Part shown: positions 53,697-59,025 of the stretch, piece by piece
Numbering within the stretch: position 1 is the stretch's first letter
Layout of the letters: each line of letters starts with the position of its first letter
Origin: an uncultured Gammaproteobacteria bacterium
GTDB taxonomy: Bacteria > Patescibacteriota > Microgenomatia > Daviesbacterales > UBA10151
Direction: 5' to 3'
Assembly: GCA_964446685.1 (NCBI GenBank)
Contig: CAYUPO010000002.1
Location: 3,606-62,630, forward strand
DNA length: 59,025 nucleotides
Program-made: the position numbers and the translations under genes
Notes under the pieces: generated by a model
Told to the model about the DNA's origin: nothing
The model's input: only the letters and a program-made list of their open reading frames with translations
Databases searched by the model: none

Positions 53697-53835
53697 CGTC
53701 ATTCCCCTGAAAAGGGGAATCTATACCAACAACACTTCATTTAATTTGATTGAAGGTTATTTGGCTTAGTACGTTCCTATCATATAAGCTAAGCTTTATG
53801 CTTCGCATTAGATTCCCACTTTCGTGGGAATGACG
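53697..53835. repeat. CGTC-tagged REP doublet, subfamily B
   Basis: CGTCATTCCCCTGAAAAGGGGAATCT ... AGATTCCCACTTTCGTGGGAATGACG. Confidence 0.88.
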
Positions 53836-55504: not shown

Positions 55505-56419
55505 TCAAAACCAACCTTTTTTCTTATTTCCTTTAGCAGATTTTAAGGCAGCCAGCTCTTCATAAAGCCTTTTCTCTTCTCCACTAACAGTTGAAGGTAT
55601 TTCCAATCTGACTCTCACATAATGATCACCAATTCCTCCTCTGGAGAGATTTGGGACACCTTTGCCTTTAATTCTGATCAATGATCCGGCCTGAGTACCT
55701 GAGGGAACTTTAATTGATACTTTTCCTTGAACAGTATCTACTGAAATAGTATCCCCAAGTACAACCTGAGGAATACCCAGCGTTGCCTCGGTAAATATAT
55801 CAGCTCCTTCGCGGATAAATTTTGTACTTCTTGAAACCCGGAAAATAAAATCATTATCACCAAACCGCATCCTTGTGCCATCATCCACACCTGCCGGAAT
55901 CTTGATTTTTAGTCTTTTACGCTCAACTTTACCTTCCCTGGTCCGATTTTCAATCTCAATCTCTTTTTCAGCCCCTTTTATAGCCTCATCAAATGAAATA
56001 CTCAATTGATAGGTTGGTCTTCTTTGGCCACCAAATCCTCCTCCAGCCATACCAAAAATCTGGTTAAACAGATCAAATGGATCAGAAAAATCTACATTTG
56101 GGTTGCCTCCATTTTGTGACCATTCATATTGAAAACCACCTTGTCCAAACGGATTAAACCCTTCTCCAAAAGGATTACCGCCACCGCCAGGCCCTTGGGA
56201 CGCAGCATGGCCAAATTGGTCATAACCTTGTTTCTTTTGGGGATCTGACAGCACTTGGTAAGCCTCAGAGATCTCCTTAAACCGAACATCCGCACCAGGA
56301 GATTTATCAACATCCGGATGATGCTGACGAGCCAGTTTACGGTACGCAGACTTAATCTCCGCTTCAGAAGCACCTTTTTTTAAACCCAATATTTCATAAT
56401 AATCTCTTTTAGCAGCCAT
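55505..56419 (-). CDS. dnaJ: DnaJ class B co-chaperone (no zinc finger)
   Basis: RDYYEILG, HPD, G/F-rich linker, KIPAGVDDG; no CxxCxGxG. Confidence 0.92.
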   Translation of the reverse strand: MAAKRDYYEILGLKKGASEAEIKSAYRKLARQHHPDVDKSPGADVRFKEISEAYQVLSDPQKKQGYDQFGHAASQGPGGGGNPFGEGFNPFGQGGFQYEWSQNGGNPNVDFSDPFDLFNQIFGMAGGGFGGQRRPTYQLSISFDEAIKGAEKEIEIENRTREGKVERKRLKIKIPAGVDDGTRMRFGDNDFIFRVSRSTKFIREGADIFTEATLGIPQVVLGDTISVDTVQGKVSIKVPSGTQAGSLIRIKGKGVPNLSRGGIGDHYVRVRLEIPSTVSGEEKRLYEELAALKSAKGNKKKGWF

Positions 56420-56438
56420 AAATTTATTTTGTGTTTAC

Positions 56439-56498
56439 AGATTCCCCTTTTCAGGGGAATGACGTTTGAGGCCGTCATTCCTGCGAAAGCAGGAATCT
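56439..56498. repeat. Two subfamily-B REP arms 3' of the GIY-YIG gene
   Basis: AGATTCCCCTTTTCAGGGGAATGACG and CGTCATTCCTGCGAAAGCAGGAATCT. Confidence 0.88.
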
Positions 56499-56517
56499 GC
56501 TGTCTTGAGACGAGTCT

Positions 56518-56802
56518 CTATAGTATACCTGCATATAAATCCTCCCAGTCTTTGTTATTCTTCTCTATTAACGCTACTTTCCAATCTCTTTTCCACTTCT
56601 TAATCTGTTTTTCTCTTAATATTGCTCCTTCAATCAAATCGTGTGTTTCAAAGTAAACTAATTTATGCACCCTATATTTACTTGAAAATCCAACCAATTG
56701 ATCATTTTTGTGCTCAAAAACCCTCTTTACTAAATCAGATGTTACTCCAATATATAAAACTCCATTTTTTTTACTAGCCAATATATAAGTATATCCGCCC
56801 AT
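56518..56802 (-). CDS. Stand-alone GIY-YIG nuclease (YhbQ/UPF0213-like)
   Basis: YTYIL, LYIGVT, KRVFEH, REKQIKKWKRDWK. Confidence 0.92.
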   Translation of the reverse strand: MGGYTYILASKKNGVLYIGVTSDLVKRVFEHKNDQLVGFSSKYRVHKLVYFETHDLIEGAILREKQIKKWKRDWKVALIEKNNKDWEDLYAGIL

Positions 56803-56817
56803 GACTATGTTATTTAC

Positions 56818-56843
56818 AGATTCCCACTTTCGTGGGAATGACG
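56818..56843. repeat. Subfamily-B REP arm 5' of the GIY-YIG gene
   Basis: AGATTCCCACTTTCGTGGGAATGACG, identical to 53810-53835. Confidence 0.88.
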
Positions 56844-56881
56844 GACAGAACAAACTCAATTGCTAAAACTTCTTAAATTTT

Positions 56882-56903
56882 AAAAAACCCCGGTCCCCCG
56901 AGG
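56882..56903 (-). terminator. Intrinsic terminator downstream of dnaK
   Basis: CCTCGG-GGGA-CCGGGG followed by T6 on minus strand. Confidence 0.65.
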
Positions 56904-57108
56904 CTAATTCGCTTTCAGTTATTATCTTCCAGCATTCAATTATTTTATCTAACAGCACCAATTCCAATAATTTTTTTACAGTTTGGACAAAAATAAACGG
57001 TATGTTGCTCTCCAATTCCGTGAGTTTTTCTTAAAAGTTCTGTTATTTCTTCTCCACAATAAGGACAAAGCGGCATCTGATCAGAGTCAGTTATTCGAAA
57101 TCCATCCA

Positions 57109-59025
57109 TTATTGTTTCTTCTCTTCTTCGACTACTTCACCTTCAACAGCTTCATCTTTAGCATCAGCTCCTTCAGCTGCAGCTTCTTCTGTTTTTGCAT
57201 CTTCCGGGTTGCTTGTCTCGTTTTGCGTGTTACCTGCAGCATTGGCATCTGCAGCCTGCTGTTTGTACATTTCAGCACCAATTTTCTGCATACTTTCACC
57301 TAGTGCATCTGCTTTTGTTTTTAGTTCATCAACTGGGCCTTCTTTGGCATCTTTTACTGCCTGGATTTTTTCTTCAACTTCTTTTTTCAGATCATCTCCA
57401 ATCTTACCTTCTGCATCTTTTAAGCTCTTTTCAGCTGTATAAACAATCTGATCGGCTGTATTTCTGGTTTCGATCTCTTCTTTTTTCTTTTTATCTTCTT
57501 CAGCATGTGCTTCTGCTTCTTTAGTCATTCGTTCAACTTCATCTTTATCAAGACCTGTTGAACCGGTAATAGTGATCTTTTGCTCTTTGCCGGTAGTTTT
57601 TTCTTTGGCTGACACATGCAAAATACCTGATGCATCAATATCAAAAGTTACTTCAACCTGAGGCACACCTCTAGGAGCTGGTGGAATTCCATCCAGAATA
57701 AACCGGCCCAATGATTTATTATCAGCCGCCATCCCTCTTTCACCCTGCAGCACATTAATCTCTACAGAAGTCTGATTATCTGAAGCTGTGGAAAAAGTTT
57801 CTGATTTAGAAGTTGGAATAGTACTGTTTCGGTTGATCAAAGGAGTACTGACAGCTCCCATCGTCTCAATACCCAGTGTTAATGGTGTCACATCCAGCAA
57901 CAATACATCTTTGACTTCTCCGCCCAGCACACCACCCTGAATTGCAGCGCCTATTGCTACCACTTCGTCAGGATTAATTCCTTTGTGTGGCTCTTTGCCA
58001 AAGAATTTTTCAACCGCAGTTTGTACGGCTGGCATTCTGGTCATACCACCGACCAATACCACTTCATCTACTTTGGAAGCCTCAATTTTAGCGTCTTTTA
58101 AAGCGGCTTTTACTGCATCAAATGTTTTATCAATCAGTCCCTGAACCAATCCTTCCATCTTTGAACGGGAGAGTTTCATCTCAATATGTTTTGGACCACC
58201 TGCATCAGCTGTTATAAATGGAATAGAGATATCAGTTTCCTGAGAAGAAGAAAGCTCAATCTTTGCTTTTTCAGCTACGTCTTTTAGCCTTTGGAGTGCT
58301 TGTTTATCATTTTTAAGATCAATTCCATTTTCCTTTTTAAATTCTTCAGCAATATAGTCAATCAGAACCTGATCAAAATCATCTCCACCCAAATGAGTGT
58401 CACCATTAGTTGATTTAACCTCAAATACCCCTTCACCAAGTTCCAGGATAGAAACATCAAAGGTTCCCCCACCCAGATCATAAACCGCGATAGTATGCGC
58501 ATTTTGCTTGTCCAGACCATAAGCCAAAGCCGCAGCTGTTGGTTCATTGATAATTCTTTGAACATTCAGTCCAGCTATTTCTCCGGCCTGCTTAGTGGCC
58601 TGTCTCTGAGAATCATCAAAATACGCCGGAACGGTGATAACCGCTTCTGTGACTTTATCTCCCAGATAAGCTTCAGCATCAGCTTTAATCTTGCCCAAAA
58701 CCATCGCTGAAATTTCCTGAGGAGTATATTCTTTACCGTTAACTACCACCACAGCCATACCGTTTTTACCAGCTTTTACTTCATATGGCAGCCATTTCAG
58801 GTCTCTTTGCACTTCAGGGTCATCAAATTTACGCCCCATCAGTCTTTTAGCCGAAAAAATAGTTTCTTTTGGGTTAACAATCGCCTGTCTTTTAGCCGGA
58901 GTTCCAACCACATTTTTAACAGGATTAACTACAGAAGGGATTGTATTTGCGCCTTCTGCACTATGAATAACTTTAGGCTGACCGCCCTCCATTACGGCGA
59001 CCGCACTATTTGTTGTTCCTAAATC
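57109..59025 (-). CDS. dnaK: Chaperone DnaK, 5'-truncated by window edge
   Basis: DLGTTNS at window edge, [39 protein letters not shown]. Confidence 0.98.

What the first reader, a model, noticed from the sequence alone, without database searches (positions are those of the whole stretch)
56434..56843. GIY-YIG gene sits inside a CGTC-REP doublet and interrupts dnaK-dnaJ: candidate autonomous element
Seen: arm CGTC...GGAATCT (56473-56498) and arm AGATTCCC...GACG (56818-56843) enclose the 94-aa nuclease exactly as they enclose 50-90-bp non-coding spacers in same-family doublets at 25324-25430 and 53697-53835. Arms are identical between loci (56818-56843 = 53810-53835; 56439-56464 = 25405-25430). 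TTTACAGATTCCC is duplicated on both sides of the gene, and the cassette lies between dnaK and dnaJ. Known: GTAG-type REPs are mobilised by RAYT HUH transposases; as I recall, CGTC-type REPs were reported without a dedicated transposase (verify). Inference: small GIY-YIG nucleases may be the cognate enzyme, forming an autonomous/MITE pair.
Basis: partly seen in the sequence, partly recalled or inferred. Interest (0 to 1): 0.8.

Follow-up and report, generated by a model that had tools for sequence, protein, structure and literature searches.

The report
Ssn nuclease gene between its hairpins
A 94-residue DNA-cutting enzyme gene flanked by two matching DNA hairpins really does sit between dnaK and dnaJ in this Daviesbacteria-like (ultra-small) bacterium, but this enzyme-hairpin pairing was published in 2025 as the Ssn single-strand nuclease family, so it is a new example of a known kind; whether the unit moves by itself is still unproven.

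Summary
Three CGTC-tagged 8-bp-stem/4-nt-loop hairpins (56438-56464, 56473-56499, 56817-56843) surround an intact 94-aa GIY-YIG gene (56518-56802, minus strand) between dnaK and dnaJ. The same hairpins form gene-less, tags-outward doublets at 25324-25430 and 53697-53835.

It was published by Chenal et al. (Nat Commun 2025, PMC11893778) as the Ssn family with NTS/SRM hairpins. The window's hairpins match the Neisseria NTS consensus at 25 of 28 positions. The protein is 53% identical, without gaps, to the 94-aa Neisseria gonorrhoeae homologue (E 8e-39).

In 73 distinct metagenomic relatives, 75% have a tags-outward hairpin about 15 nt before the start codon, 76% have one about 7 nt after the stop, and 64% have both. 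About 1.6% is expected per side.

The "autonomous element/MITE" part is not shown. There is no target-site duplication, no second copy of the gene was seen, and a hydrolytic nuclease has no transposase chemistry. However, the cassette is absent from dnaK-dnaJ in 15 of 18 relatives, lies at another site in 2, and is less diverged than its flanks elsewhere.

The parts
56518..56802 (-). ssn gene: 94-aa single-domain GIY-YIG nuclease of the Ssn (SsnA-like) family
   Evidence: PF01541 E 3.6e-14. It is 53% identical over all 94 residues, without gaps, to the 94-aa N. gonorrhoeae homologue, E 8e-39. All family-invariant residues are present: Y6, Y17, G19, R27, H31, E64, N83. It is only 23% identical to E. 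coli YhbQ over a partial alignment.
56817..56843 (-). Unit C: the upstream NTS/CGTC-1 hairpin of the cassette (CGTCATTCCCACGAAAGTGGGAATCTG). Its tag faces away from the gene and its stem ends 17 nt before the ATG.
   Evidence: 3 mismatches to the Neisseria NTS consensus. DNA fold -7.5 kcal/mol with an 8-bp stem and 4-nt loop. Identical to 53810-53835.
56473..56499 (+). Unit B: the downstream NTS hairpin of the cassette (CGTCATTCCTGCGAAAGCAGGAATCTG). Its tag faces away from the gene and it lies 18 nt after the stop codon.
   Evidence: The stem changes relative to unit C are compensatory (CCTGCG/CGCAGG versus CCCACG/CGTGGG).
56438..56464 (-). Unit A: a third hairpin, tag-to-tag with B across an 8-nt spacer, in direct orientation with C, 18 nt upstream of the dnaJ start.
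   Evidence: D1, I2; fits the published SRM search pattern. A third unit in this position is seen in 11 of 52 related cassettes.
56873..56903 (-). Conserved terminator-like GC hairpin plus T-run after dnaK and the zinc-ribbon ORF. It is the left landmark of the insertion interval.
   Evidence: 90-94% identical to L006 3029-3059 and L007 3400-3429. Not flagged by the simple terminator scan.
56945..57109 (-). 54-aa zinc-ribbon ORF overlapping the dnaK stop codon. It is lineage-specific filler of the dnaK-dnaJ spacer and not part of the cassette.
   Evidence: It is replaced by unrelated 71-72-aa ORFs in the nearest relatives.
55505..56419 (-). dnaJ (304 aa), right neighbour
   Evidence: PF00226 and PF01556.
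57109..59025 (-). dnaK (partial, runs off the window), left neighbour
   Evidence: 91-92% identical to DnaK of L006 and L007.
53697..53835 (.). Gene-less tags-outward doublet of the same family, with a 91-nt spacer, in the infB-nusA spacer.
25324..25430 (.). Gene-less tags-outward doublet of the same family, with a 59-nt spacer.
19312..19860 (-). Second ssn paralogue (95 aa, 19467-19754) surrounded by its own, different hairpin subfamily (TGTCATKCTGGAG...GATAGMATC). This is context for enzyme-repeat pairing.
   Evidence: 54% identical to Ssn1, E 1e-31. In this window the subfamily is confined to this locus apart from two looser matches.

Best explanation
This is a canonical NTS-ssn-NTS cassette. 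It carries a gene for an Ssn-family (SsnA-like, cd10448-type) site-specific single-stranded-DNA endonuclease. The gene is bracketed, tags outward, by two copies of the hairpin that the enzyme recognises. That hairpin is a CGTC-1 / dRS3 / NTS-type REP.

By analogy with the four characterised homologues, the protein would work as follows:
- It binds the hairpin only when the DNA is single-stranded, for example at replication forks or on incoming transforming DNA. It reads the palindrome and the C that follows it.
- It hydrolyses the strand a few nucleotides 5' of the CGTC tag.

The same hairpins are dispersed in the genome as gene-less, tags-outward doublets in operon spacers. These are further substrates.

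The cassette was gained, or exchanged, in the hypervariable dnaK-dnaJ spacer of this Daviesbacteria lineage. It is not an ancestral resident of that spacer.

Status of each step:
- Shown here: the anatomy, family membership by sequence, the enrichment and fixed geometry of the flanking hairpins in relatives, and the patchy distribution.
- Taken from the literature: the ssDNA-specific binding and cleavage, and the effect on transformation in Neisseria.
- Inferred: that this particular protein cuts these particular hairpins, and what that does for a CPR cell. Most likely it limits or reshapes recombination of hairpin-bearing ssDNA.
For: Window anatomy and sequence:
- Pfam GIY-YIG, 94 aa, single domain.
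- 53% identity over 94/94 residues to the N. gonorrhoeae 94-aa homologue, E 8e-39. This is far beyond the paper's E<1e-10 criterion.
- The catalytic and family-invariant residues are intact.
- Four window units match the Neisseria NTS consensus CGTCATTCCCGCGMAVGCGGGAATCYRG with 3 mismatches, against 0 expected. Four units fit the published degenerate SRM pattern, against 0.06 expected.
- All units keep the GTC before the palindrome and the C after it. The paper found these critical for cleavage and binding respectively.

Relatives:
- In 73 distinct metagenomic relatives, a tags-outward hairpin lies within 60 nt upstream in 53/71, downstream in 54/71, and on both sides in 44/69. About 0.016 is expected per side from the loci's own background.
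- The median gaps are 15 nt to the start codon and 7 nt after the stop.
- The orientation is outward in 53 versus 6 upstream and 52 versus 5 downstream.
- Stem positions 10/19, 12/17 and 7/22 covary.
- A second paralogue in the window has its own hairpin subfamily.

Published biochemistry and the association statistics.
Against: - No biochemical test of this protein exists.
- CDD cd10448 assignment could not be run.
- The Neisseria comparison uses the gonococcal homologue, which I presume to be the orthologue of meningococcal SsnA.
- Two of the three local units fail the paper's strict SRM regular expression, although they match the NTS consensus.
- In the gonococcal locus the nearest hairpins have their tags towards the gene. 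This is the opposite of the window and of about 90% of the relatives, so the geometry is not universal.
- The physiological role in a CPR bacterium is inferred only.
Confidence: 0.85

Rival explanations
1. The hairpin-ssn-hairpin unit is an autonomous mobile element and the gene-less doublets are its non-autonomous (MITE/REPIN-like) partners. The nuclease cuts at the hairpins. Spread then occurs either by transposition or, more plausibly for a hydrolytic nuclease, by break-induced gene conversion (homing-like) between hairpin-marked sites.
For: - The architecture is IS-like: a 28-nt, 86% inverted repeat encloses one gene. The gene-less doublets share the same tags-outward geometry.
- The cassette is absent from dnaK-dnaJ in 15 of 18 Daviesbacteria relatives, including the two nearest, which have DnaK 91% identical.
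- It is present in L013 and L018, but at a different site: directly after the dnaK terminator and before a methyltransferase gene. L020 has that methyltransferase without the cassette.
- The closest homologue (72%, also Daviesbacteria) sits in an unrelated locus.
- In same-locus pairs of metagenomic contigs, ssn is far less diverged than its flanks, third codon positions included. Examples are 0/294 versus 7-15%, 4/291 versus 21% and 6/291 versus 19%.
- Contigs from the same samples show further doublets with the same arms. One shares 6 and 3 extra inner-flank bases with the cassette.
- With tags outward, the predicted cuts fall just outside both ends of the cassette, one on each strand (inference).
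Against: - There is no target-site duplication at the window cassette or in 45 related cassettes.
- The exact protein is found only at this one locus.
- No excision or empty-site junction appears in 4 runs, but these are contigs only, which hide rare variants.
- GIY-YIG enzymes are hydrolytic and form no covalent intermediate (established knowledge), so they cannot carry out strand transfer on their own.
- On any one strand only one of the two flanking hairpins is in the cleavable orientation.
- The low-divergence tracts extend variably beyond the tags. They look like ordinary homologous-recombination tracts rather than hairpin-bounded transfers.
- Flanks of such repeats may simply evolve fast. 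This was reported for dRS3-adjacent genes in Neisseria.
- The Ssn tree is unresolved, and a single origin of the three dnaK-dnaJ copies is not rejected (AU p 0.46).
- The doublet spacers show no similarity to the gene (read by eye).
Confidence: 0.2
2. The hairpins are moved or multiplied by another enzyme acting in trans, for example an IS110-family recombinase or a RAYT elsewhere in the genome. On this reading ssn is a passenger or a host-side controller.
For: - An IS110-family transposase gene sits inside the loop of the upstream hairpin of ssn in L155-L158, while L159 has the intact hairpin.
- REP and dRS3 repeats are known targets of IS elements (background of PMC3733652).
Against: - Targeting a hairpin for insertion is not the same as mobilising it.
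- No IS110 or RAYT homologue is present in the window or in the 80 metagenomic loci.
- Di Nocera et al. found no transposase flanked by CGTC units.
Confidence: 0.08
3. Chance juxtaposition. REP-like hairpins fill intergenic gaps everywhere, and an unrelated housekeeping GIY-YIG gene (YhbQ/UPF0213-like) happens to lie between two of them.
For: Hairpins of this family also occupy other operon spacers in the window, such as infB-nusA.
Against: - There is about 45-fold enrichment at both ends of relatives, with fixed spacing and orientation.
- The protein is not YhbQ-like: 23% identity over a partial alignment, E 2e-4.
- The association is published with biochemistry.
Confidence: 0.02

Closest known systems
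Ssn nucleases with NTS / SRM hairpins (SsnA of Neisseria meningitidis; Chenal et al., Nat Commun 2025, PMC11893778)
   Same: - The protein is a 94-aa single-domain GIY-YIG enzyme, 53% identical to the gonococcal homologue.
- The hairpin is nearly the Neisseria NTS, matching 25 of 28 consensus positions with compensatory stem changes.
- The gene is flanked on both sides by the hairpin, and the same hairpins are dispersed in the genome.
   Different: - The host is a candidate-phyla-radiation (Daviesbacteria-like) bacterium. That group is not mentioned in the paper (0 occurrences of Patescibacteria or Candidatus).
- The tags face outward here and in about 90% of relatives, but face the gene at the gonococcal locus.
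- The tail is CTG/CTA rather than CCAG.
- The cassette sits inside the dnaK-dnaJ operon spacer.
- No activity data exist for this protein.
CGTC-1 tagged REPs (Di Nocera, De Gregorio & Rocco 2013, PMC3733652), including Neisseria dRS3 and Rickettsia RPE-6
   Same: - The units carry a CGTC (or TGTC) tag, an 8-bp stem beginning AT, a 4-nt loop and a short unpaired tail.
- They are mostly organised as inverted dimers.
   Different: That paper found no dedicated enzyme for these repeats. Here, and in Chenal 2025, the enzyme gene lies inside a dimer. The host phylum is also new.
REPtrons: RAYT (HUH Y1 transposase) genes flanked by GTAG-type REPs, with REPIN doublets
   Same: One small gene is bracketed by inverted copies of the hairpin repeat that is dispersed as doublets. 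The enzyme recognises a hairpin in single-stranded DNA with a 5' tetranucleotide tag.
   Different: - The enzyme fold and chemistry are entirely different: a hydrolytic GIY-YIG nuclease versus an HUH tyrosine transposase with a covalent intermediate.
- The tag is CGTC, not GTAG.
- No transposition activity is known.
Free-standing GIY-YIG homing endonucleases (for example I-TevI, SegA-E of T4)
   Same: Both have a GIY-YIG catalytic domain, a selfish-looking patchy distribution, and a low-divergence island around the gene that resembles co-conversion tracts.
   Different: - Homing enzymes carry a separate DNA-binding domain and cut double-stranded DNA at one long target.
- Ssn is a single domain that cuts only ssDNA at a short, multi-copy hairpin.
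IS200/IS605 'peel and paste' elements
   Same: Both have subterminal hairpins that are recognised in single-stranded DNA. The analogy is drawn by Chenal et al..
   Different: In IS200/IS605 both ends are cut on the same strand by an HUH enzyme that rejoins them. Here the two hairpins are cleavable on opposite strands, and no rejoining activity is known.

Membership tests
Ssn nuclease family (cd10448-type GIY-YIG; Chenal 2025) | Single-domain GIY-YIG protein of about 94 aa | tested here: met
   94 aa. PF01541 covers residues 3-75 and no other domain is present.
Ssn nuclease family (cd10448-type GIY-YIG; Chenal 2025) | Homology to Neisseria SsnA at E<1e-10 (the paper's operational criterion) | tested here: met
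   53% identity over 94/94 residues, no gaps, E 8e-39 to the only homologue in a N. gonorrhoeae chromosome. The meningococcal protein itself was not available.
Ssn nuclease family (cd10448-type GIY-YIG; Chenal 2025) | Catalytic tyrosines and the metal-binding glutamate are retained | tested here: met
   Y6, Y17, R27, H31, E64 and N83 are invariant in 190 aligned relatives and are present here.
Ssn nuclease family (cd10448-type GIY-YIG; Chenal 2025) | Gene flanked 5' and 3' by NTS/SRM hairpins | tested here: met
   Units C and B, plus A. Both sides are flanked in 44 of 69 relatives.
Ssn nuclease family (cd10448-type GIY-YIG; Chenal 2025) | CDD assignment to cd10448 / placement in the Ssn clade | not testable with these tools
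   No CDD library is available. NCBIfam has no specific model; only weak UvrC and intron-endonuclease hits were found. The protein is distinct from UPF0213/YhbQ.
Ssn nuclease family (cd10448-type GIY-YIG; Chenal 2025) | Binds and cuts only ssDNA, a few nt 5' of the hairpin tag | not testable with these tools
   This needs protein biochemistry. It has been shown for four homologues.
CGTC-1 REP / dRS3 / NTS repeat | CGTC or TGTC tag, 8-bp stem starting AT, 4-nt loop, C after the palindrome | tested here: met
   All three local units and the four units of the two doublets meet this.
CGTC-1 REP / dRS3 / NTS repeat | Dispersed multi-copy family in the genome | tested here: met
   Seven units in 59 kb against 0.27 expected. 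Further doublets with other spacers appear in contigs of the same samples.
Autonomous transposable element (IS) with MITE partners | Terminal inverted repeats enclosing the enzyme gene | tested here: met
   28-nt arms, 86% complementary.
Autonomous transposable element (IS) with MITE partners | Target-site duplication or another insertion footprint outside the ends | tested here: not met
   The outer flanks TTTGAGGC and GACAGAAC are unrelated. None was seen in 45 related cassettes.
Autonomous transposable element (IS) with MITE partners | Several near-identical copies of the gene-bearing element at different sites of one genome | tested here: inconclusive
   The exact protein was found only at this locus, on 5 contigs.
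Autonomous transposable element (IS) with MITE partners | Empty orthologous sites in relatives | tested here: met
   The cassette is absent in 15 of 18 relatives, and L020 is empty where L013 and L018 are filled. The boundaries cannot be mapped to the nucleotide because the spacers are too diverged.
REPtron (RAYT + GTAG REP) | HUH Y1 transposase gene and GTAG tag | tested here: not met
   The enzyme is GIY-YIG and the tag is CGTC.
UPF0213 / YhbQ GIY-YIG proteins | Full-length similarity to E. coli YhbQ | tested here: not met
   23% identity over 80 aligned positions with 30% gaps, E 2e-4.

The most novel reading that the evidence does not exclude
NTS-ssn-NTS cassettes are genuinely mobile, and they spread without a transposase.

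Proposed mechanism:
- The nuclease nicks hairpin-marked sites in single-stranded DNA, at forks or on incoming DNA.
- Repair by recombination with a cassette-bearing copy then converts empty hairpin doublets into cassettes, or homogenises cassettes between lineages.
- This would be a homing-like drive whose 'homing site' is a dispersed REP. The gene-less doublets would be its landing pads or deletion derivatives.

Evidence that fits but does not prove it:
- The cassette occupies two different sites of the dnaK-dnaJ spacer in three of nineteen Daviesbacteria genomes.
- ssn is markedly less diverged than its flanks in same-locus pairs.
- About 90% of cassettes have their tags outward, which puts the predicted cuts just outside the cassette.
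Probability: 0.2. Interest if true: 0.75.

Novelty: new member of a known kind. Interest (0 to 1): 0.3.

Why it matters
That pairing answers the 2013 question of which enzyme goes with CGTC-type REPs. The answer was published in 2025, so the finding mainly extends the Ssn/NTS system to a new host and context:
- an ultra-small candidate-phyla-radiation bacterium;
- the inside of a core chaperone operon.

What remains open, and what these data bear on, is whether the cassette is selfish and mobile or a domesticated regulator of recombination.
- the patchy dnaK-dnaJ distribution;
- the strict tags-outward geometry in about 90% of relatives;
- the low divergence of ssn relative to its flanks.

Ssn enzymes are also being developed as ssDNA tools. 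A second paralogue with a clearly different hairpin in the same genome is a natural pair for studying specificity.

Tried and rejected
2. I built a maximum-likelihood tree of 190 Ssn proteins to ask whether the three dnaK-dnaJ copies share one origin. It was unresolved with 97 columns, and the AU test did not reject monophyly (p 0.46).
3. The upstream and downstream hairpins looked different (stem position 10 C versus T, Fisher p 4e-5). This suggested left and right ends, but it shrank to 10 versus 3 clusters at 90% identity and 2 versus 1 at 80%. I rejected it as not robust.
4. I found no target-site duplications outside the tags.
5. The doublet spacers are not recognisable remnants of the gene. 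Only a shared GTTATTT was seen by eye.
6. The viral contig scan found no relatives.
7. Linkage to competence genes is not general. ComEC lies convergent with ssn in one lineage, but it is absent from the 80 metagenomic loci and from the window.
8. I looked for excision or empty-site junctions in four public runs. Only junctions from paralogous doublets and from a distant relative appeared. These runs are kept as contigs, which cannot show rare variants.
9. The low-divergence blocks around ssn are not bounded by the hairpin tags, so they are not evidence of hairpin-specific cutting and joining.
10. PDB sequence search gave no hit and NCBIfam has no specific model. The simple terminator scan did not flag the conserved GC hairpin at 56873-56903.
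Full report
**Observation**

The region reads, in gene orientation (minus strand):
- dnaK (57109-59025, runs off the window);
- a 54-aa zinc-ribbon ORF overlapping the dnaK stop (56945-57109);
- a conserved terminator-like hairpin (56903-56873);
- 29 nt of spacer;
- hairpin unit C (56843-56817);
- 14 nt of leader after the unit (17 nt after the stem);
- a 94-aa ORF (56802-56518);
- 18 nt of spacer;
- hairpin unit B (56499-56473);
- 8 nt of spacer;
- hairpin unit A (56464-56438);
- 18 nt of spacer;
- dnaJ (56419-55505).

Each unit is CGTC + ATTCCnnn + GAAA + nnnGGAAT + CTG, an 8-bp stem with a 4-nt loop, folding at -7.3 to -7.8 kcal/mol as DNA. The pattern CGTCATTCC-N10-GGAAT finds 8 sites in the window against 0.27 expected.

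B and C form a 28-nt, 86% inverted repeat around the gene. Their CGTC tags point outward. This is the same geometry as the two gene-less doublets at 25324-25430 and 53697-53835.

The 'duplicated TTTACAGATTCCC' is part of a 31-nt direct repeat between units A and C. It is not a target-site duplication: it lies on the non-tag side of the hairpins, and the bases outside the tags are unrelated.

**What the gene is**

The ORF matches Pfam GIY-YIG (E 3.6e-14) and has no other domain. It has thousands of relatives of 94-97 aa at 60-73% identity in many phyla. It keeps every residue that is invariant in 190 aligned relatives: Y6, Y17, G19, R27, H31, E64 and N83.

It is not the YhbQ/UPF0213 type. Identity to E. 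coli YhbQ is 23% over a gapped partial alignment.

**What is known**

Di Nocera et al. 2013 defined CGTC-tagged REPs. Their family CGTC-1 has an 8-bp stem beginning AT and a 4-nt loop, and it includes the Neisseria dRS3 repeats. They stated that these repeats "apparently lack a dedicated transposase".

Earlier notes of this scan pointed to Chenal et al. 2025, which I read. That paper reports the following:
- About half of dRS3 copies are a longer oriented motif, NTS (CGTCATTCCCGCGMAVGCGGGAATCYRG).
- Across bacteria this motif is associated with one gene, ssnA, a 94-aa single-domain GIY-YIG protein of the cd10448 type.
- 71% of homologues have at least one flanking motif and 42% have motifs on both sides.
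- SsnA from N. meningitidis and three homologues bind the hairpin only as ssDNA and cut a few nucleotides upstream of it.
- Binding depends most on the C after the palindrome. Cleavage depends on the three bases before it.
- In meningococci the enzyme lowers transformation by NTS-bearing DNA.
- The authors note that NTS-ssnA-NTS looks like an insertion sequence. They raise mobility or domestication only as a hypothesis.

**Membership tested here**

Four window units match the Neisseria NTS consensus with 3 mismatches, against 0 expected. The stem differences are compensatory. Four units fit the paper's degenerate SRM pattern, against 0.06 expected. All units keep the GTC and the following C.

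By luck, the plasmid collection holds two 2.17-Mb N. gonorrhoeae chromosomes filed as plasmids. Each carries a single Ssn-like gene of 94 codons, next to NTS units. The window protein aligns with it over all 94 residues without gaps, at 53% identity and E 8e-39. This passes the paper's own E<1e-10 criterion.

A CDD assignment and enzyme activity could not be tested.

**Association re-tested**

I examined 80 metagenomic loci found with the window protein, giving 73 distinct genes.
- A GTCA-tagged hairpin in the outward orientation lies within 60 nt of the start in 53 of 71.
- One lies within 60 nt of the stop in 54 of 71.
- Both are present in 44 of 69.
- About 0.016 per side is expected from the density of such hairpins elsewhere in the same loci.
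- The median gaps are 15 nt upstream and 7 nt downstream.
- The nearest hairpin points outward in 53 versus 6 cases upstream and 52 versus 5 downstream. A third unit, like unit A here, follows in 11 of 52.
- Stem positions covary: 10/19, 12/17 and 7/22.

A second paralogue in the window (19467-19754, 54% identical) is surrounded by a different hairpin subfamily that is largely confined to its own locus. This fits enzyme-specific repeats.

**Is the position stable?**

A scan with DnaJ returned 18 Daviesbacteria-like genomes with dnaK next to dnaJ.
- The spacer ranges from 10 to about 2700 nt and holds unrelated small ORFs.
- 15 of the 18 have no ssn there. This includes the two nearest relatives, L006 and L007, whose DnaK is 91-92% identical.
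- L006 and L007 share with the window only the dnaK end, the terminator-like hairpin and the dnaJ start. L007 has 71 hairpin-free nt where the window has 453 nt.
- L013 and L018 do carry a tags-outward cassette, frameshifted in L018. It lies at another site: 12-30 nt after the dnaK terminator and in front of a methyltransferase gene.
- L020 has the same terminator and methyltransferase without the cassette.
- The closest homologue (72%, another Daviesbacteria MAG) lies in an unrelated neighbourhood.

The gene is therefore not a stable orthologous resident.

The protein tree is too short to tell one origin from three.

**Evidence bearing on mobility**

Against mobility:
- There are no target-site duplications.
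- The exact protein is seen only at this locus.
- No excision junction appears in four runs, which are kept only as contigs.
- The hydrolytic chemistry of GIY-YIG enzymes allows no strand transfer (established knowledge).
- Only one of the two flanking hairpins is cleavable on a given strand.

For mobility:
- The patchy distribution described above.
- The tags-outward geometry. It puts the predicted cut just outside each end of the cassette, one on each strand (inference).
- Further doublets with the same arms in the same samples. One shares a few extra inner-flank bases with the cassette.
- A consistent pattern in same-locus pairs of contigs, where ssn is much less diverged than its flanks, third codon positions included. 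Examples: 0/294 differences against 7-15% in four diverged backgrounds that carry an identical gene; 4/291 against 21%; 6/291 against 19%.

The low-divergence tracts extend for variable distances beyond the tags. They look like homologous-recombination or co-conversion tracts, not hairpin-bounded transfers. Fast-evolving flanks, such as the pilin genes downstream of several of these cassettes, are an alternative explanation.

I put the homing-like or mobile reading at about 0.2.

**Verdict**

- The identification of the enzyme-repeat pair is correct but already published.
- The 'autonomous element' claim is open.
- The locus is a new member of the Ssn/NTS kind, in a new host lineage and inside the dnaK-dnaJ spacer.

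Noticed in passing
window 19312-19860: A second Ssn-like gene (95 aa, 19467-19754, minus strand) is 54% identical to the first. It is surrounded by five units of a different, longer-loop hairpin subfamily (TGTCATKCTGGAG...GATAGMATC). Its stop codon lies inside one unit.
   Followed up: partly
window 20885-20907 and 26407-26559: There is a third hairpin subfamily with a CTTG loop (TGTCATTCTGGCTTGTCCAGAAT and TGTCATGCTGAACTTGTTTCAGCAT). The copy at 20885 lies in frame inside the tgt-like ORF (19856-21307), where it reads DSGQARMTG within a large insertion. No cognate nuclease gene for this subfamily is in the window.
   Followed up: partly
L018 1003-1320: In this Daviesbacteria relative the ssn gene in dnaK-dnaJ is frameshifted. 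The downstream methyltransferase ORF now starts inside the end of ssn and reads through the 3' hairpin (MKKSDIWIPGQARND...). The hairpin has been co-opted as coding sequence.
   Followed up: partly
L155 2360-2510, L158 1440-1590 versus L159 380-520: An IS110-family transposase gene (DEDD_Tnp_IS110 + Transposase_20) is inserted in the loop of the hairpin upstream of ssn, with a second copy downstream in L158. L159 carries the intact hairpin at the same locus. These hairpins are therefore insertion targets for IS110-type elements, as reported for dRS3 and REPs.
   Followed up: partly
L072, L077, L087, L091, L094, L098, L102, L107, L125, L140, L146 (downstream of ssn): In at least 11 of 73 distinct metagenomic loci the cassette lies 38-157 nt upstream of, and co-directional with, one or two type IV pilin-like genes (N-terminal GFTLIE motif). 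In another lineage (L167) ssn is convergent with ComEC, 36 nt away. This may be one or two lineages only, but it echoes the link of SsnA to natural transformation.
   Followed up: partly
L165/L166/L169/L171, L130/L136, L103/L121, L102/L127: At orthologous loci the ssn gene is far less diverged than its flanks, third codon positions included. The cassette forms a low-divergence island of about 400-700 nt whose ends do not coincide with the hairpin tags.
   Followed up: partly
L172 (N. gonorrhoeae NZ_CP119140.1 1881875-1882956): Two complete gonococcal chromosomes are filed as plasmids in PLSDB. At the gonococcal ssn locus the nearest NTS units have their tags towards the gene, the opposite of about 90% of the relatives examined. 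The upstream units are degenerate half-copies.
   Followed up: no
L006-L022, L037 (dnaK-dnaJ spacers): The dnaK-dnaJ spacer of Daviesbacteria is hypervariable, from 10 to about 2700 nt. It holds unrelated lineage-specific small ORFs, including zinc ribbons, 71-72-aa ORFs, a methyltransferase and a PHP-like gene. A terminator-like GC hairpin after dnaK is conserved.
   Followed up: partly
L013 1556-1630; L093, L144, L155 downstream of ssn: Short tandem arrays of degenerate half-units (for example GAGGTGGGAATGACA repeated three times) follow the downstream hairpin in several cassettes. This suggests slippage or repeated partial duplication at the tag end.
   Followed up: no
window 56465-56472: Units A and B are tag-to-tag across 8 nt. 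The predicted Ssn cuts on the two strands would therefore fall within the same 8-bp spacer just upstream of dnaJ.
   Followed up: no
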